The position numbers and the translations under genes were made by a program. From an uncultured Solirubrobacterales bacterium (GTDB taxonomy: Bacteria > Actinomycetota > Thermoleophilia > Solirubrobacterales > Solirubrobacteraceae): 64,000 nt of DNA. This document shows positions 6,850 through 12,833 of the stretch, one piece after another (position 1 is the first letter of the stretch; every line of letters begins with the position of its first letter). The stretch covers positions 981,484-1,045,483 of the forward strand of contig CAWJEV010000002.1 of assembly GCA_963842005.1 (NCBI GenBank), written 5' to 3'. The notes under the pieces are model-generated. The model was not told where the DNA came from. It did no database searches and saw only the letters and a list, made by a program, of their open reading frames with translations.

Positions 6850-7008
6850 CTCCCCTTGGGCTCCTCCGCGGGTTTGCTGCGCAGGATCCCGCTCGTGTTT
6901 CCGATCCTCTCGGGCCGCTACTGCCGGGTGGCCGGAGGCATCGCAGCCTCCGGCTCCCACAGATCCGCACGTGAGCCTCTCGACTCATACGGCTCGTGTC
7001 GTCCAGCT

Positions 7009-9021
7009 TTATAGGGTTGGCGCACAGTGCCTCCAATGCACGAATAGCTCGGGTTCCCTTGTATGGACCCCTCGCAACCACGTCCGCGCTCGAGGACCAC
7101 TGCGCTCCAGTCGTTTGTACTTCCACCTCGCCCATCGCACCAGATGGCGGTCCATGCGACGGCAGAGTGGGGCGACCGCGCTCGGGTAGAACGCGGTGTA
7201 ATACGCAAGCCAACCCCCAATGACGGGGTTGACCTCCTTTGCGAGGCCATTGAGAGTCCAGGTCGTGTGCCTGTGAAGCCGCCATGACGCTGCCCGGCGG
7301 CTCATTTCGCTCAGCTTCCCCGGAGATACAGCCGGAAGGAAGCTTGTAAAGGCAACCCCCCGTCTCTTGTTCACTGCTTTCCGGGGCCTGAACGCATAAC
7401 CGCAGAACGTGAACGAGACGTGCTCGTATGTTCCCCGGCGATTGCTGTCCTTGCAATGTGAAGTAGGCGAGAGGCGCGCCACCGATATCCCACCCAGCGA
7501 TCTCAACGGCTGGGCATCCTCGGCACGACTCCTCTCACCCCTTCCCAAACCGTGCATGAGGTTTTCCCTCACACGGCTTTCCCCCAGGCAGTCGACCGAC
7601 GGCATTCCGCTTGCCACAGCGTTGGCTATCGGCCCAAGCGACCTACGAGGCTCCTCGGCTCTTACGAGCCTTGGCCGTTGCTTGATCGCGCACCTGGCTA
7701 GAGGCCCTTCGCTACGACGGGTTATGTTGTCCACGCCGATCATCGCTACTACTGCCTCCTCCGACTTCCGCTCAGCGCTCCACCACTTCCCGGTACTTCC
7801 GGTTATAGGTATCGCCACTTCCCGGAGCGCCCCAGACTGGCAACCTGGGGCCGTGAATGCCGGGGCCGAGACGGATCTCTCACGTTCCGTGCTGAACTGT
7901 GCATACGTTCCGATCCCAATACGCCGGCGGGTTCCTCGGTGCTGCAACTCCAAGGTCTTCGCACCTTCCCTGGCCTTCGCCCATCGTATAGAGGCTCGGC
8001 TCCCGCTCCTTCCCGCTCTCGCGGGGACCATATCGACGCTTACGCAGGATTCCTCATCGTACGGACCGCATGCTTGCTCGCCGCCCAAAACGGCGACTTT
8101 GTCATGGGGCTTCGACAGTCGGGTCTCCCCTTCCACCGCCCACCAACTACGCGGCTGCTTGGTCATTACCGCGACCGGCCTCTCACCGGCAAGCTCAACA
8201 TAGCTTCGTGATACACATACGATCTTGGTCTTCTCGGGATGAAGCTCCAACCCGACTTCGACCAGCCGGCGTGCGAGCGCCTCCCGCAACTCACGGGCAT
8301 GGCTCTCGCTGACACAATGGATCACCACATCGTCCGCAAAGCGCTCGAACTGTACGGCCGGGAACTCCCGCACCATCCAAGCATCGAACCCGTAATGCAG
8401 AAATAGATTGGCGATCAGCGGCGAAATCGGAGACCCCTGCGGAGTCCCCTTCTCCCTCGGCACGAGACTGCCGTCAGGCATTAACATCGGGGCTTTCAAC
8501 CAGCGCTCCACATACAACAGGACCCACTTCTGGTCCGTGTGGCGCGCCAAGGCCTTCAACGTCAAATCCCAAGGAACAGAGTCAAAGAATTTCCGGATGT
8601 CAACATCGAGCACCCAGTCCTTCCTAAAACCCCGCTCCCGGCAAACCGCGACCGCTTCGAGGGGCGAGCGTCCGGGACGATAGCCGTAGGAGTCATCGTG
8701 GAACACTTGCTCCACGCTGGGCTCCAACGCCATAGCCGCCGCCGTCTGAGCGACCCTGTCAACGATATTTGGTATGCCTAGCCGTCTCGAACCTTTCTTC
8801 TTCGGGATATCCACCGCCCGGACCGGCCCGGGGAAATACGACCCCGACGACATGCGATTCCACAGCTTGAAGAGGGTCCCCGAGAGATCCTCCTCGAACT
8901 GCTCGATCGTCACACCGTCGGCCCCAGCCGACCCGCCTTTCTCTCTCACCTTCAACCACGCATCCCACACCAGTTGCTTGGGGATGACATATGACTTTCC
9001 CTTCAGCTTTGGCTCAAGCAT
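7009..9021 (-). CDS. ltrA: Group II intron reverse transcriptase/maturase, interrupted in frame by an inner intron
   Basis: RT motifs LGIPNIVDRVAQ, GTPQGSPISPLIAN, FADD and LHPEKTKIV, plus X/thumb domain (YCKD..SFTFCGYAF..GWLAYY); no endonuclease domain seen. Removing 7458..8216 restores KTKIV-Y-CKD and a ~417-aa protein. Confidence 0.92.
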   Translation of the reverse strand: MLEPKLKGKSYVIPKQLVWDAWLKVREKGGSAGADGVTIEQFEEDLSGTLFKLWNRMSSGSYFPGPVRAVDIPKKKGSRRLGIPNIVDRVAQTAAAMALEPSVEQVFHDDSYGYRPGRSPLEAVAVCRERGFRKDWVLDVDIRKFFDSVPWDLTLKALARHTDQKWVLLYVERWLKAPMLMPDGSLVPREKGTPQGSPISPLIANLFLHYGFDAWMVREFPAVQFERFADDVVIHCVSESHARELREALARRLVEVGLELHPEKTKIVCVSRSYVELAGERPVAVMTKQPRSWWAVEGETRLSKPHDKVAVLGGEQACGPYDEESCVSVDMVPARAGRSGSRASIRWAKAREGAKTLELQHRGTRRRIGIGTYAQFSTERERSVSAPAFTAPGCQSGALREVAIPITGSTGKWWSAERKSEEAVVAMIGVDNITRRSEGPLARCAIKQRPRLVRAEEPRRSLGPIANAVASGMPSVDCLGESRVRENLMHGLGRGERSRAEDAQPLRSLGGISVARLSPTSHCKDSNRRGTYEHVSFTFCGYAFRPRKAVNKRRGVAFTSFLPAVSPGKLSEMSRRAASWRLHRHTTWTLNGLAKEVNPVIGGWLAYYTAFYPSAVAPLCRRMDRHLVRWARWKYKRLERSGPRARTWLRGVHTREPELFVHWRHCAPTL
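7458..8216 (-). ncRNA. ORF-less group II intron (inner intron of a twintron, 759 nt)
   Basis: Starts GTGTATCACG and ends CCTACTTCAC (bulged A at -7, AC end). Domain V AAGCCGTGTGAGGGAAAACCTCATGCACGGTTT at ~7547-7580. EBS1 ATACGAT (7983-7989) is the exact complement of the last 7 exon nt ATCGTAT (8217-8223). Candidate EBS2 TGGTC (8026-8030) pairs with exon GACCA. Confidence 0.9.
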
Positions 9022-9584
9022 GTGCTTCCTGCCTTGCGGTTGAGCACACACTCAAACCAGGACGACCCCGCCCCTTGGCTCCACCCCCGCTGCGATACGC
9101 GGAAGCTTCACAGCTACTACGAGCGAGTCCGCCGACGCTCCCGGCGACGGTACTCTGCTCCTCACGGATTCTGCCGCTTGGAGTCCTTCCTCTCGCCACC
9201 AAACCATCAGTGGCAGTTTCCGGGTACGTCTTCACACGTTCCATAGAAGCGCCTCGGTCGGGTTCATGCTGCCTATATGCCGGATGCCGCCTGGTCAGTA
9301 AACGGGTGACCCCCAGGCTCCTCCCAGGGCAAGAAAACGACCCTGGTTTCGACATCGTCTTAGACACTTTCGACACGTCAACGGCAGAGGACATACTGCG
9401 TCCATCGCTCATCTCCCCGACCCACACCTGCCGCGCTCTAGTCGCGACTTTTCCCACGACGCTCACCACGACGGTCTTCAGCCAACGCAGCTATGGGCGG
9501 TTTAGTACCTCCCCCCGAAGGGCGGTCCTGGAGGGCCGTACAACCTCCATCACTTCTACAGCGCCGCAATCGGCAAGACCACCA

Positions 9585-12500
9585 TCAAACATGCTTCCTC
9601 TTGCCTTTCGCGTTCGTGTTCACAATTTTCTTGTGTGCCTTGTGTGTCCGGTGGTGTGTGTGGGTGGTTTTGTGTGGGCACCCGGTGGTCGTGATGGGTG
9701 TGCTCTGGTGGATGATGCCGCCGTCCTGGGCGAGGAATTCGGTGGGCATCGCGAGCTTGGCGGTGCAGAGGTTCCCGTGGGCTGCCAGGGCGGAGTACGG
9801 GCCCTCGGGGAGCGCGAGCTCGAAGGTGTAGACCGGGACGTCGGGAACCGACTTGAACGTGCTGCTCGTGATCCCGTGCTTGCTGATGAACGTCGAGCCG
9901 ACGAGGTCGACTGTGACGCCGTAGCCCTGCAGGACGACGATCAGGCTGGGAAATGCTTCGCCGCCGTGCGATACGAAGTAGGCTGGGCCTTCCAGGGGGA
10001 CCGGCAGGATCGGCGTGACGGCCTTCGCGTGCCCGACGACCGATGCGGCGGGGCAACGGGCGGGGTTCGCTTCGAACGTCGCGGCGGCGCACGCTTTCTG
10101 CAGCGTCTTCAGGCGGGAGGGCAGCTGGCGGGGGAGTTCGACTTTGACTCTCGCGATGTTCGACTGGCTGGATGCCTGGTTGGCGCCCAGCGGGCCGGTC
10201 GGGTAGACGAGCTTCGCGTCGAGGCTCGCACCGTTCGCCCGGGAGGTCTTCCCCGACGTCGAGACTTTGAAATCGGGTTTGAACTTCAAGCTGCGACACG
10301 AACCGACCTGGAAATGACTGGAGATCTGAGCGCTCGCGCCTTCGGTGCTCGTCGCTGTGCCGCTGAAGGCCATCGTGCTGCATCTCGTCGGGTTGAACAT
10401 GAACCCGGGACGGTCGATCACCGCGTCGATCGACCGCAGATCGGAGGGGACCCCGTCGACGATCGACGGCAACGGGCTCGTCGTGACGGTCAACTGCGAG
10501 GTATAGCGGTCAACTTCGATCCTCGCGCGCGTCACAATCGTGCCAAGGTTGAACGGGCCGACGACCAGCGGCACCACGATCGACAGGCCATACGGGGCAC
10601 CCCCATAGCCCCCGGTGAGATAGATCGGCGCGGGGGGGGACCCGGGCTGCGGCACGACCAGCGGATAGGGCCCGGGGCCTGCCTCCACGACCGTGTGCCC
10701 GATCTGCGAGGCTGCGGGGCACGTCCCGTCGGCTGCCTGCGGTTCGCCGCACAACGGGACCTTGCTGATCATCCCCAACAGGCCCTCCGGGGTCTTGAAC
10801 TGCAACGTCGAGATCCGCTGCTGCCCATCACCCCGCGTCAGCAGAAGCGAGAAGTCCGTGAACCCACCCGCCTGGTCGGTCGTCGACCCCGCGTCCAGCG
10901 AGGGGGCGAACGGCGCCGGGGAGGACGGGCACGCAGACCCCCCCGGGCCTTCGCTGAGCGCGAAGCTGCTCGACGGGAACACTTCGCTCACGAACGGCGT
11001 GCTCCACGGCACAAAATCCGTGCTCGTCGTATACACCCCGCACTGCACCGGGGTCGCGAGCGCTGCCTGCGCGCCACCGCTGAAGGACAGCTTCAGGTCG
11101 CTGAACGGCAGCTGCGGTGTCCCCTTGAACGTCGTCGTGAGCCGCCCCGTCGTTTCGTTCAGGCGGACGTCCCCAACGAACTTCACGTAGATCCCGTCCT
11201 GTGGGTCTTCCGGGGCGACGAGCAGCTTCAGGTCGGGGGGGTTGGACTGCAGCACGTACACGTTGCCTTCCAGCTTGTTCTTCAGCACAGGCGTCTGGAC
11301 CGCGACCTGCCCGACCTTCGAGTCCAACGGGCACGACGGCGGGCCTTCTTCGTCCAACCGAGCTTGCGCTTCCTGGCACGCGCCGAGCCCCGCGGCCTGC
11401 CCCGGGTTGACCACCACGCCTTCCGGGAGGGTCACCGTCGTGTCCTGGATATCGGACTCCGAGTTCGCACCAGAGTTGACGAGGCCTTCCTGGCCCATCT
11501 TCACTTCGAACGTCAAGCCCGCCGGGGTATCCGCACGCACAGTATCCGGCGAGACCGCGACCGCCGGCGCGAATTCCAGCGGGCTGCAACCCGTGAACGG
11601 GCCGATACTCGAAGGCACATTGACCTCCCGGCCCGGTTCTTCCCACGAGTTCACACTGAACACGGCCTGCAACGGTTCCGCGGTGCAATCCGTCGGGCTC
11701 GTCAGATACGGCACCGCGGGATTCGTCACCGGCTGACCCTCCGGGGCTTCTTCCAGCGTAACCGGGTTCGCCTCCCCCCTCGTTTCATTCACATAAAAAC
11801 AATCTCCTGCTTCTTCGCATTTGAGTCCTCGCATCAGATCGTGCTGGGATTCCGCCGGGACACCCCACACGGTAAACGAGGTACCATCGATCGCTATCGA
11901 ACTGTCCTGGATTTTCGTGAAGTTCGTGCGCACCGCATAATCACCAGGCGTCAGCGAGATCGTGCCCTGGATGCCAAACCTTTCGATGACCGTGAAGCCA
12001 AGCTTGGCGATTTCACCAGGGTTAGTCGTCAGATTCAACAACGGCCGCACAAAAGTACCCCGCAAAGCACCAAGATTCCAATAAACAATCACCGACCCGA
12101 CGACCGCGCTCAACGAGCAGTGCAGCGCGCCGTCGCTCTCTTCGCTGAAACCCGCGATCGGGCACTTCGGGGTATCCGCGAGATCACCAACGAACCCCGG
12201 CGGCAAAGTCGCACCGGCTTCCCTCACATTACCCGAGAACAACCCTTCACTCACACTATTGAACTCGAACGTCGTCGTCAGGTCGGGGTGAGCGCCAGCC
12301 TGAGTACTCGACAACGCGCTCACCGTCGAACCAGGAGCAATACCAAACACAGCCGCAGAAGAACTGATCACAGTCGGCGTCTCCCGGCTGGCTTCCACCC
12401 CGCCCCCACCCGACACCGTCACCATATTCGTCACACTCGACCACTCCCGAACACCGCCTTCCACTTCTACAGGAACCTTCATTTCAAGAACATTACCAAC

Positions 12501-12833
12501 CCCAACAACACCCGAAAACACACACGTCAAACCCACACAGCTCATCGGCGCCGCAGTCTCAAAATACAACCCCGAAACAGGTTCAGCGCCAGCCCTCAAA
12601 CCCACCGGCAGCACATCCGACACACTCACCGCTTCACCATCACTCGGACCACCACCAGTATTCTGCACACGCACCGTATAAAAACCCGAACCCCCAGGCG
12701 CCAAATTCGTCGGAGTAGAAAACCCAGTCACCGTCCACTGCGGAACCCCCCCAACACCCAACGCACCCACCGGCACACACAACACCACCAACACACACGA
12801 CACCCCGACCAACGACACACACCGCTTACACAT
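9585..12833 (-). CDS. Large secreted protein B, copy 2 (1082 aa, uncharacterised, four internal repeats)
   Basis: Intact ORF with a Val/Cys/Gly-rich signal peptide, an N-terminal DUF11-like Ig segment (YTVRVQNTGGGPSDGEAVSVSDVLP), four LP.G...C...CP..S.VG repeats and a His/Lys-rich tail. Confidence 0.9.
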   Translation of the reverse strand: MCKRCVSLVGVSCVLVVLCVPVGALGVGGVPQWTVTGFSTPTNLAPGGSGFYTVRVQNTGGGPSDGEAVSVSDVLPVGLRAGAEPVSGLYFETAAPMSCVGLTCVFSGVVGVGNVLEMKVPVEVEGGVREWSSVTNMVTVSGGGGVEASRETPTVISSSAAVFGIAPGSTVSALSSTQAGAHPDLTTTFEFNSVSEGLFSGNVREAGATLPPGFVGDLADTPKCPIAGFSEESDGALHCSLSAVVGSVIVYWNLGALRGTFVRPLLNLTTNPGEIAKLGFTVIERFGIQGTISLTPGDYAVRTNFTKIQDSSIAIDGTSFTVWGVPAESQHDLMRGLKCEEAGDCFYVNETRGEANPVTLEEAPEGQPVTNPAVPYLTSPTDCTAEPLQAVFSVNSWEEPGREVNVPSSIGPFTGCSPLEFAPAVAVSPDTVRADTPAGLTFEVKMGQEGLVNSGANSESDIQDTTVTLPEGVVVNPGQAAGLGACQEAQARLDEEGPPSCPLDSKVGQVAVQTPVLKNKLEGNVYVLQSNPPDLKLLVAPEDPQDGIYVKFVGDVRLNETTGRLTTTFKGTPQLPFSDLKLSFSGGAQAALATPVQCGVYTTSTDFVPWSTPFVSEVFPSSSFALSEGPGGSACPSSPAPFAPSLDAGSTTDQAGGFTDFSLLLTRGDGQQRISTLQFKTPEGLLGMISKVPLCGEPQAADGTCPAASQIGHTVVEAGPGPYPLVVPQPGSPPAPIYLTGGYGGAPYGLSIVVPLVVGPFNLGTIVTRARIEVDRYTSQLTVTTSPLPSIVDGVPSDLRSIDAVIDRPGFMFNPTRCSTMAFSGTATSTEGASAQISSHFQVGSCRSLKFKPDFKVSTSGKTSRANGASLDAKLVYPTGPLGANQASSQSNIARVKVELPRQLPSRLKTLQKACAAATFEANPARCPAASVVGHAKAVTPILPVPLEGPAYFVSHGGEAFPSLIVVLQGYGVTVDLVGSTFISKHGITSSTFKSVPDVPVYTFELALPEGPYSALAAHGNLCTAKLAMPTEFLAQDGGIIHQSTPITTTGCPHKTTHTHHRTHKAHKKIVNTNAKGKRKHV

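What the first reader, a model, noticed from the sequence alone, without database searches (positions are those of the whole stretch)
6923..9569. Group II twintron: an ORF-less intron nested in the RT gene of another intron
Seen: two complete sets of domain V/VI. The inner intron (8216-7458) splits the Tyr codon of KTKIV-Y-CKD between RT domain 7 and the X/thumb domain, and its EBS1 (ATACGAT) is the exact complement of the exon end (ATCGTAT), with a plausible EBS2. Its RNA sequence is unrelated to the outer intron, so it looks like a different class. Established: bacterial twintrons exist but are uncommon. Inference: the inner intron is adapted to this conserved RT site and must splice to yield the canonical maturase, making it either a parasite of a parasite or a splicing-dependent switch on outer-intron mobility.
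Basis: partly seen in the sequence, partly recalled or inferred. Interest (0 to 1): 0.85.

Follow-up and report, generated by a model that had tools for sequence, protein, structure and literature searches.

The report
ORF-less intron nested in intron RT gene
A small self-splicing intron with no gene of its own sits exactly inside the reverse-transcriptase gene of a larger, unrelated self-splicing intron; this "parasite of a parasite" layout is real and recently mobile but of a known kind, and its one odd trait is that it can be translated straight through without meeting a stop codon.

Summary
Rfam finds two nested group II introns on the minus strand. The outer is class D1D4-2 with D5/D6 at 6997-6923. 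The inner is a 759-nt ORF-less intron, 8216-7458, class D1D4-4.

Removing the inner intron joins ...HPEKTKIV-Y-CKDSNRRG... into a 417-aa protein that matches the group II RT/maturase model end to end.

Two corrections:
- The outer intron starts at 9625, not 9569.
- The insertion lies between RT motifs 6 and 7, inside the RT domain, not at the RT7/thumb border.

The genome holds three 100%-identical inner copies:
- this one;
- one at the same codon of an 84%-identical paralogous outer intron, itself split by an IS630 element;
- one ectopic copy.

Relatives in soil Actinomycetota form an exclusively ORF-less subfamily. It sits in other introns' RT genes, in their ribozymes and in IS transposases. 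EBS1/EBS2 co-vary with each target.

No RT of the inner intron's class is in this genome, so it must be mobilised in trans or self-splice. The closest precedents are the Thermosynechococcus and Methanosarcina twintrons.

One trait is unexplained: one reading frame is stop-free across most of the subfamily. No RNA data could be obtained.

The parts
6923..9625 (-). Outer group II intron (2703 nt including the inner intron; 1944 nt without it). Rfam D1-D4 class RF01999. RT-encoding and without an endonuclease domain.
   Evidence: Rfam. The 5' end is set by three-paralog alignment and EBS1/IBS1 covariation. The 3' end is set by the RF00029 alignment.
9626..9632 (-). IBS1 of the outer intron (AAGAAAA), the last 7 nt of the 5' exon.
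   Evidence: It pairs with loop UUUUCUU at 9337-9331. The paralogs co-vary: GGAAUGA/UCAUUCU and GAGGAGG/CUUCUUU.
9331..9337 (-). EBS1 loop of the outer intron (UUUUCUU).
9426..9548 (-). Outer intron domain I core (RF01999 match).
   Evidence: 94.7 bits.
8217..9021 (-). RT/maturase ORF, first part (ATG 9021; RT0-RT6; ends ...HPEKTKIV + T of the Tyr codon).
   Evidence: The RT frame has 9 stops upstream of the ATG, so the ORF is free-standing.
8226..8230 (-). IBS2 for the inner intron (GACCA).
   Evidence: It pairs with EBS2 UGGUC. Covariation in L041/L043 (GACG/CGUC), L042 (GCACUA/UAGUGC) and L044 (GGACC/GGUCC).
8217..8223 (-). IBS1 for the inner intron (ATCGTAT).
   Evidence: Exact complement of EBS1. 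Covariation across 8 introns and 7 sites.
7458..8216 (-). Inner ORF-less group II intron, 759 nt, GUGUAU...CUUCAC. By intron position: D1 14-330, D2 338-454, D3 458-517, D4 520-633, D5 638-670, D6 to 759.
   Evidence: Rfam. Consensus fold of 10 relatives has 181 pairs, 68 with compensatory changes. Coordinates mapped. Three 100%-identical genomic copies.
8054..8192 (-). Inner intron domain I core (RF02003 match).
   Evidence: 95.1 bits.
8026..8030 (-). EBS2 of the inner intron (UGGUC).
7983..7989 (-). EBS1 of the inner intron (AUACGAU), in a hairpin loop.
7458..7581 (-). Inner intron domains V and VI.
   Evidence: RF00029, 54.3 bits.
7009..7457 (-). RT/maturase ORF, second part (AT of Tyr, CKDSNRRG, RT7 FTFCGY, X/thumb = Pfam GIIM, stop TAA).
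6923..6997 (-). Outer intron domains V and VI.
   Evidence: RF00029, 48.9 bits.
7009..9021 (-). Read-through ORF of the unspliced RNA: 670 aa, i.e. the RT with a 253-aa insert. The inner intron is 3x253 nt with no stop in this frame.
   Evidence: P0002.
9626..12833 (-). Host gene (about 1070-aa signal-peptide protein, no family match). The outer intron sits 4 nt before its stop. Spliced it reads ...KKK*; unspliced it reads ...KKIVNTNAKGKRKHV*.
   Evidence: reading of the sequence.

Best explanation
This is a group II twintron made by retrohoming of a non-autonomous intron. The outer element (9625-6923, minus strand) is an ordinary bacterial retroelement: a ribozyme plus a free-standing, endonuclease-less RT/maturase gene. 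It is inserted 4 nt before the stop codon of a large secreted-protein gene. A 759-nt ORF-less intron of a different RNA class then reverse-spliced into the RT coding sequence after the first base of the Tyr codon in KTKIV-Y-CKD. Its EBS1 and EBS2 loops, pairing with the 13 nt upstream of that site, guided the insertion. The canonical 417-aa RT can be made only after the inner intron is spliced out of the outer-intron RNA. The unspliced RNA instead encodes a 670-aa RT with a 253-residue insert in the RT6-RT7 hairpin. The inner intron has no protein of its own and no RT of its own class in this genome. Its splicing and recent mobility (three identical copies) must therefore depend on an RT supplied in trans, or on self-splicing. 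The best candidate for the trans RT is the intact paralogous outer-class intron at contig C2:1.7137-1.7159 Mb. The inner intron belongs to a widespread, always ORF-less subfamily of soil Actinomycetota that lives almost entirely inside other mobile elements. Shown here: the anatomy, boundaries, pairings, copy number and family habits. Inferred: splicing, the order of splicing and the identity of the helper RT.
For: Nested Rfam hits. The ORF is restored exactly and matches TIGR04416 and RVT_1 across the junction. The consensus fold gives D1-D5 with 68 compensatory pairs. EBS1/IBS1 and EBS2/IBS2 co-vary across 8 relatives at 7 targets, for example own AUACGAU/AUCGUAU against L043 AGACGAU/AUCGUCU. 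There are three 100%-identical inner copies, while the two host introns are only 84% identical. The ectopic copy keeps IBS1 (GUCGUGU, two G-U pairs) and IBS2 (GACCG). RF02003 occurs in this genome only in the three ORF-less copies, and no RT is closer than 43% to RTs of that class. An intact third outer-class RT is present, and its homologous site has a mismatch and is unoccupied. In the subfamily, every one of the 33 relatives (from 65 loci) in which D5 could be located is ORF-less (D5 at about 625-710), and the targets are RT ORFs, ribozyme cores and IS3, ISL3, DUF772 and rve transposase genes. The same inner-identical, outer-diverged pattern is documented for T. elongatus (PMC2882425).
Against: The inner 5' end is GUGUA rather than GUGYG, and the outer begins UUGUGAA. 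The second twintron's inner copy is broken by an IS630 element. No cognate-class RT is present, so activity with a heterologous RT is an assumption. The assembly is about 93% complete, so a cognate RT could lie in the missing part.
Confidence: 0.85

Rival explanations
1. Translational transparency. The inner intron, and its subfamily, is kept free of stop codons in one frame. Ribosomes that enter it from the host element therefore run on into the downstream RT coding sequence. The host RT, with an insert or an N-terminal extension, is still made from unspliced RNA. This would break the deadlock in which the parasite blocks the only enzyme that could splice and mobilise it. This reading adds to the main explanation and does not exclude it.
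For: The own intron has 0 stops in the RT frame against 13 and 10 in the other sense frames. None of 20,000 dinucleotide shuffles gave 0 stops in that frame. Length is 3x253 nt. In 27 non-redundant relatives found by a nucleotide pattern, and so not selected for ORFs, mean stops per homologous frame are 9.96, 6.70 and 0.48. Twenty of the 27 have no stop from the 5' end to D5. Stop sites turn over freely in the other two frames (29 and 22 variable sites) but there are only 8 rare ones in this frame. At three kinds of site the frame runs on into the host RT ORF for 1.2-2.2 kb: site A (own, L041, L089), site D (L045, L092, L101) and site E (L047/L064). An earlier unchecked note of this scan (e1-2078248) proposed translate-through introns in another lineage.
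Against: Variability shows no codon-position periodicity (0.195/0.235/0.202; permutation p = 0.75), so no protein sequence is conserved. The host ORF enters this frame at only about 4 of 8 ORF-hosted sites, near the chance rate. Many copies lie in non-coding ribozyme parts or antisense to transposase genes. Some relatives carry frameshifts or stops: L043, L042, L056, and the Streptomyces plasmid copy. A 253-aa insert in the primer-grip hairpin may well inactivate the RT. The own outer intron has no stop-free leader.
Confidence: 0.3
2. Fossil. Both introns are dead. The insertion inactivated the outer RT, the inner intron no longer splices, and the locus is decaying selfish DNA with no present activity.
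For: No cognate RT for the inner class. Non-consensus 5' ends of both introns. The sister twintron has been hit by an IS630 element. ORF-less derivatives are said not to persist long in bacteria (PMC4424553).
Against: Three copies are identical over 759 nt, including a new ectopic site. Both RT exons are intact, with no stop or frameshift over 417 codons, and score above the curated cut-off. D5, D6 and the EBS loops are intact and fit their targets. The subfamily has diversified to about 70% identity while keeping its structure.
Confidence: 0.12
3. Regulatory switch. Splicing of the inner intron is conditional (temperature, Mg2+, growth phase) and is used to gate production of the outer RT and hence outer-intron mobility.
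For: This follows from the architecture alone: the RT domain is interrupted, so RT output must depend on inner splicing.
Against: No conserved regulatory feature was found. The subfamily inserts at many unrelated sites, including non-coding ones. That fits opportunistic parasitism better than a host-selected switch.
Confidence: 0.05

Closest known systems
Thermosynechococcus elongatus twintrons: ORF-less TeI3a-e (family F3) inside the RT ORF of TeI4a-e (Mohr, Ghanem & Lambowitz 2010, PMC2882425)
   Same: An ORF-less group II intron lies inside the RT ORF of an ORF-containing one. The inner copies are identical while the outer copies have diverged. Good EBS/IBS pairing indicates retrohoming. 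An IS element sits in one copy. The family also targets IS elements. The inner intron is mobilised in trans by another intron's RT.
   Different: In T. elongatus the inner and outer introns are close relatives, and the site lies between the first two ATGs, so the RT can be made from the second ATG without splicing. Here the two RNAs belong to different Rfam D1-D4 classes. The site is in the middle of the RT domain. No RT of the inner class is in the genome.
Nested group II introns of Methanosarcina acetivorans (Dai & Zimmerly 2003, RNA 9:14; paper not held, known here only through its title and PMC4424553 and PMC2882425)
   Same: Site-specific homing of ORF-less and RT-encoding introns into the ORFs of other group II introns. 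Multi-level nests. Mobile elements serve as a perpetual homing site.
   Different: The host is an archaeon. [quoted passage not shown] There is no report, in what I could read, of a stop-free read-through frame.
Trichodesmium erythraeum group II twintron (Pfreundt & Hess 2015, PMC4649490)
   Same: A bacterial twintron; by its title it is spliced sequentially.
   Different: I read only the title and abstract of this paper, so I cannot state further differences.
Yeast mitochondrial cox1 introns aI1/aI2 (exon-fused intron ORFs; from my own knowledge)
   Same: A reading frame continuous with the upstream exon stays open through ribozyme domains I-III.
   Different: In yeast the frame leads to the intron's own RT, which is cleaved from the fusion. 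Here the intron has no protein of its own, and the frame leads back into the host's RT.

Membership tests
Group II intron (inner element 8216-7458) | Domain V catalytic hairpin followed by domain VI with a bulged A near the 3' end | tested here: met
   RF00029, 54.3 bits against a gathering score of 40, full model 1-77, ending ...CCUACUUCAC at 7458.
Group II intron (inner element 8216-7458) | Domain I-IV architecture supported by covariation | tested here: met
   RF02003, 95.1 bits. RNAalifold on 10 relatives gives 181 pairs, 68 with double-sided changes, arranged as D1-D5.
Group II intron (inner element 8216-7458) | EBS1-IBS1 and EBS2-IBS2 pairing with the 5' exon | tested here: met
   A 7-bp and a 5-bp pairing. 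Both co-vary with the target in L041-L047.
Group II intron (inner element 8216-7458) | Consensus termini 5' GUGYG and 3' AY | tested here: inconclusive
   The 5' end is GUGUA (A instead of G at position 5; relatives have GUGUA or GUGUG). The 3' end is AC.
Group II intron (inner element 8216-7458) | Splicing activity | not testable with these tools
Twintron | One complete intron lies wholly inside another, and its removal restores a functional part of the outer intron | tested here: met
   Nested Rfam order. The joined ORF scores 365.6 bits on TIGR04416, continuous over 351 of 353 profile positions.
Twintron | Sequential splicing, inner before outer function | not testable with these tools
   No RNA data.
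T. elongatus-type ORF-less/RT-ORF twintron | Inner copies identical, outer copies diverged (recent independent insertions) | tested here: met
   The inner copies are 100% identical; the outer copies are 84% and 83% identical.
T. elongatus-type ORF-less/RT-ORF twintron | The inner intron is an ORF-deleted relative of an RT-encoding intron in the same genome | tested here: not met
   RF02003 hits only the three ORF-less copies. The other introns are RF01999, RF02001 and RF02005. The best RT identity to D1D4-4-class RTs is 43% or less. There is no inner/outer similarity above shuffles.
T. elongatus-type ORF-less/RT-ORF twintron | An insertion point that leaves a usable downstream start codon for the full RT | tested here: not met
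   The site is at codon 269 of 417, inside RVT_1.
Group II intron RT/maturase (spliced ORF) | RT domain plus maturase (X/thumb) domain | tested here: met
   RVT_1 at 2.2e-37, GIIM at 4e-13, TIGR04416 above its cut-off. The active site reads FADD.

The most novel reading that the evidence does not exclude
The inner intron is one member of an undescribed, always ORF-less, SINE-like group II intron lineage of soil Actinomycetota. The lineage preys on other mobile elements and is built to be translated through. One frame is kept free of stop codons from the 5' splice site to domain V or beyond, without any conserved protein sequence. Ribosomes coming from the host element are therefore not stopped, and the host's RT, on which the parasite depends, is still produced from unspliced RNA. 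A related ORF-containing clade (RT N-terminus ...RRFHALYDRI...) shows the same stop-free leader running into its RT gene.
Probability: 0.3. Interest if true: 0.75.

Novelty: new member of a known kind. Interest (0 to 1): 0.45.

Why it matters
The arrangement itself adds another bacterial example to a known class of nested retroelements, with very clean comparative proof of its target pairings.

It matters more for two other reasons.

[quoted passage not shown] Here an exclusively ORF-less lineage has diversified to about 70% identity. It has spread over several actinobacterial orders and retargeted to more than 20 sites in other mobile elements. That is how a non-autonomous (SINE-like) retroelement behaves, and it bears on models of how introns could lose their ORFs and still proliferate.

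Second, the inner intron has no RT of its own class nearby. It therefore offers a test of how far a group II RT can serve a foreign ribozyme.

If the stop-free frame is truly selected, it would be a bacterial answer to the problem of ribosomes running into introns. That question is usually discussed only for the origin of the nucleus.

Tried and rejected
- **A real protein in the stop-free frame.** Rejected. There is no Pfam hit and no third-position excess of variability.
- **A shadow of an antisense gene.** Rejected. The 264-aa plus-strand ORF 7409-8203 is not in the register that would explain it. It has no GC3 signal. The antisense strand is simply A-poor.
- **The insertion phase always matches the open frame.** Rejected after translating the junctions: only about 4 of 8 ORF-hosted sites match. 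My first impression came from a protein search that can only find long in-frame ORFs, so I repeated the survey with nucleotide patterns.
- **All D1D4-4 introns have a stop-free leader.** Rejected. Most ORF-containing members in a 400-genome phylum sample have 2-8 stops in the RT frame. Only one clade has 0-1.
- **The inner DIV mimics the outer DIVa RT-binding site.** No similarity above shuffles.
- **Assembly artefact.** Rejected. Three copies lie on megabase contigs.
- **Ancestral-state counting of stop gains.** I did not try another way and used frame-wise site counts instead.
- **Mapping Rfam D1D4-2 and D1D4-4 to Zimmerly classes.** A literature search gave nothing.
- **Dai & Zimmerly 2003.** The paper is not held.
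Full report
**1. What is there**

On the minus strand, Rfam at its curated thresholds finds four pieces in nested order:
- an RF01999 (D1D4-2) domain-I core at 9548-9426;
- an RF02003 (D1D4-4) core at 8192-8054;
- domains V/VI at 7581-7458;
- a second domains V/VI at 6997-6923.

The sequence between the first and last piece carries a reverse-transcriptase ORF. It runs from ATG 9021 to ...AAG ATC GTA T at 8217 and resumes at 7457 with AT TGC AAG GAC. Joining the two parts gives a 417-aa protein...HPEKTKIV-Y-CKDSNRRGTYEHVSFTFCGYAFRPR....

This protein scores 365.6 bits on NCBIfam TIGR04416, group II intron RT/maturase (cut-off 300). The match is one continuous stretch over 351 of 353 profile positions. 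It also carries Pfam RVT_1 (residues 72-290) and GIIM. The junction is at residue 268/269, so the interruption lies inside the RT domain, between motif 6 (KTKIV) and motif 7 (FCGY). The motif naming rests on general knowledge of group II RTs.

**2. Boundaries and target pairings of the inner intron**

The 759-nt insert begins GUGUAUCACG and ends CCUACUUCAC. Its loop AUACGAU (7989-7983) is the exact complement of the last seven exon bases, AUCGUAU. A second loop, UGGUC (8030-8026), pairs with GACCA at exon positions -14 to -10.

These pairings are not chance, because they change with the target in relatives:

| Locus | IBS1 | EBS1 | IBS2 | EBS2 |
|---|---|---|---|---|
| L043 (same RT codon) | AUCGUCU | AGACGAU | – | – |
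| L042 (site FMHYAF\|D) | GCGUUUG | CGAACGC | GCACUA | UAGUGC |
| L044 (DUF772 transposase) | GUGAUCU | AGAUUAC | GGACC | GGUCC |
| L046 (site EPIF\|E) | AUCUUCG | CGAAGAU | – | – |

A consensus fold of ten relatives gives 181 pairs, 68 of them with compensatory double changes. The pairs arrange as D1 (intron positions 14-330), D2, D3, D4 and D5.

**3. The outer intron**

Three paralogs in the genome and three metagenomic relatives were aligned. A hairpin loop co-varies with the exon in the three genomic paralogs:
- UUUUCUU with AAGAAAA here;
- UCAUUCU with GGAAUGA in copy 2;
- CUUCUUU with GAGGAGG in the third.

This places the 5' splice site after 9626, so the intron spans 9625-6923 and begins UUGUGAAC.

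The outer intron lies 4 nt before the stop codon of a roughly 1070-aa signal-peptide protein gene. The spliced message ends ...KKK*. The unspliced one adds 13 residues (read).

The RT frame has nine stops upstream of its ATG, and an AGGAAG lies 5 nt before the ATG. The RT gene is therefore free-standing. The protein ends soon after the GIIM domain, so it has no endonuclease domain.

**4. Copies in the genome**

The inner intron occurs three times at 100% identity.
- **Copy 1** is in the window.
- **Copy 2** (C2:20514-22415) lies at the same Tyr codon of a paralogous outer intron (C2:19111-22950). That outer intron is only 84% and 83% identical to this one. Its IBS1 is AUCGUGU, with one G-U pair. 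This inner copy is itself split at the D3/D4 junction by a 1139-bp IS630-type element (DDE_3 and HTH domains, CTAG duplication).
- **Copy 3** (C5:816697-817455) is ectopic, in a non-coding stretch downstream of serS. Its IBS1 is GUCGUGU and its IBS2 is GACCG.

Identical inner copies in diverged hosts are the signature that Mohr et al. used to infer recent independent insertions in T. elongatus (PMC2882425).

**5. Which RT serves it**

The genome holds the following introns:
- a third outer-class intron with an intact RT (56% identical to this one);
- an RF02001-class intron with an RT;
- an RF02005-class intron without a detectable D5;
- a lone D5/D6.

RF02003 hits nothing but the three ORF-less copies. 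RTs of RF02003-class introns from sister species find nothing above 43% identity here. The inner and outer RNAs share no similarity above shuffles.

The inner intron therefore either self-splices or uses a heterologous RT. The intact paralog is the obvious candidate. Its own KTRIV|Y site (AUUGUCU) has a mismatch at -2 and is empty. This step is inference. The assembly is about 93% complete, so a cognate RT could have been missed.

**6. The wider family**

I first searched a protein database with the read-through ORF. I then ran two nucleotide-pattern scans that do not depend on ORFs. Together these returned 65 loci from soil metagenomes and MAGs: Solirubrobacteraceae, Acidimicrobiaceae, Mycobacteriales, Pseudonocardiaceae and Dormiibacterota.

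All members share sequence blocks that are absent from ORF-containing RF02003 introns. Every one of the 33 relatives in which D5 could be located has it at position 625-710, so these are ORF-less.

The 5' exons define more than 20 sites:
- five in RT ORFs (KT.IV|Y, FMHYAF|D, LYKIWNR|M, RFHALY|D, EPIF|E);
- several in ribozyme cores of other introns, including DIV of this outer class and D1, D2 and D5 of their own class;
- IS3 OrfA, ISL3 and DUF772 transposase genes, and the antisense strand of an rve-type integrase gene.

This is the habit described for T. elongatus and Methanosarcina, namely insertion into other mobile elements. Earlier unchecked notes of this scan report similar lineages in other genomes. 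A cultured carrier of a related nest is Streptomyces sp. NBC_01136.

**7. The stop-free frame**

The inner intron is 3x253 nt. It has no stop in the frame continuous with the RT ORF, against 13 and 10 stops in the other sense frames. None of 20,000 dinucleotide-preserving shuffles gave zero stops in that frame.

Among 27 non-redundant relatives found by nucleotide pattern:
- mean stops per homologous frame are 9.96, 6.70 and 0.48;
- 20 of the 27 have no stop from the 5' end through D5;
- variable stop sites number 29, 22 and 8, and the 8 are all rare.

The depletion is therefore sustained and is not a single ancestral accident.

It is not a protein gene. There is no Pfam hit and no codon-position periodicity in variability.

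It is also not a simple match to host reading frames. The host ORF enters this frame at about 4 of 8 ORF sites, and many copies lie in non-coding or antisense contexts.

At three kinds of site, however, the frame runs on through the 3' splice site into the host RT ORF for 1.2-2.2 kb. One clade of ORF-containing RF02003 introns has the same stop-free leader ending next to, or fused with, its RT start. Most other members of that class do not.

I therefore hold translational transparency as a real possibility, at about 0.3. The cause remains unexplained.

**8. Verdict**

The arrangement is a new member of a known kind. It differs from the T. elongatus case in three tested respects:
- the intron classes are unrelated;
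- the site is in the middle of the RT domain;
- no cognate RT is in the genome.

Splicing, the helper RT and the meaning of the open frame remain to be tested at the bench.

Noticed in passing
G000 contig C2:19111-22950 (L027), outside the window: A second twintron with three levels of nesting. A 1139-bp IS630-type element (364-aa DDE_3/HTH transposase, CTAG duplication) lies in the D3/D4 junction of the inner intron. That inner intron lies in the RT ORF of an 84%-identical outer intron. The outer intron appears to sit just after the ATG of a signal-peptide protein gene.
   Followed up: partly
G000 contig C5:816697-817455 (L028): An ectopic, 100%-identical copy of the inner intron lies in a non-coding stretch downstream of serS. 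Its IBS1 and IBS2 are still compatible through G-U pairs.
   Followed up: yes
G000 contig C2:1365514-1365615 (L025): A lone group II domain V/VI (RF00029, 50.4 bits). No D1-D4 match and no RT lie within about 3 kb upstream or 0.6 kb downstream. It is either an intron fragment or an ORF-less intron of a class that Rfam does not model.
   Followed up: no
G000 contig C2:453188-455050 (L026) and C5:948026-949960 (L023): Two further group II introns of other RNA classes. The RF02005 one has a 583-codon RT frame but no detectable D5. The RF02001 one has a 551-codon RT frame and a sub-threshold D5 (39.8 bits). The genome thus holds four RNA classes.
   Followed up: partly
window 9585-9632 and 6917-6922: The outer intron sits in phase 1, 4 nt before the stop codon of a roughly 1070-aa secreted protein gene with no family match. 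Splicing changes only the last residues (...KKK* against ...KKIVNTNAKGKRKHV*). This position does minimal harm to the host gene.
   Followed up: partly
L037, L040, L121 and the outer introns of L045, L055, L092, L101: A clade of ORF-containing RF02003 introns (RT N-terminus ...RRFHALYDRI...) keeps the RT frame free of stops through ribozyme domains I-IV. In L037 and L040 the leader ends at a TAG one codon before the RT's ATG. In L092 and L101 it is fused to the RT as one ORF of 749-796 codons. This resembles the exon-fused ORFs of yeast mitochondrial introns.
   Followed up: partly
window 7409-8203, plus strand: A 264-codon open frame lies antisense to the whole inner intron. It has no coding-like GC3 and is best explained by the A-poor composition of that strand, so it is not a gene.
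   Followed up: yes
L141 = NZ_CP108633.1:717015-723705 (Streptomyces sp. NBC_01136 plasmid): A cultured strain carries a related nest. An ORF-less subfamily member lies inside the ribozyme of an RF02003 intron. That intron's RT gene is annotated in two pieces, with an extra D5/D6 between them. None of the RNA parts is annotated in the record.
   Followed up: partly
L068 and L073 (metagenome contigs): Subfamily members are inserted into, or directly after, other members of the same ORF-less subfamily. The 5' exon ends in a D6-like ...CCCACUUCAC in one case and lies in the D2/D3 region in the other. This is self-targeting or a tandem array.
   Followed up: no
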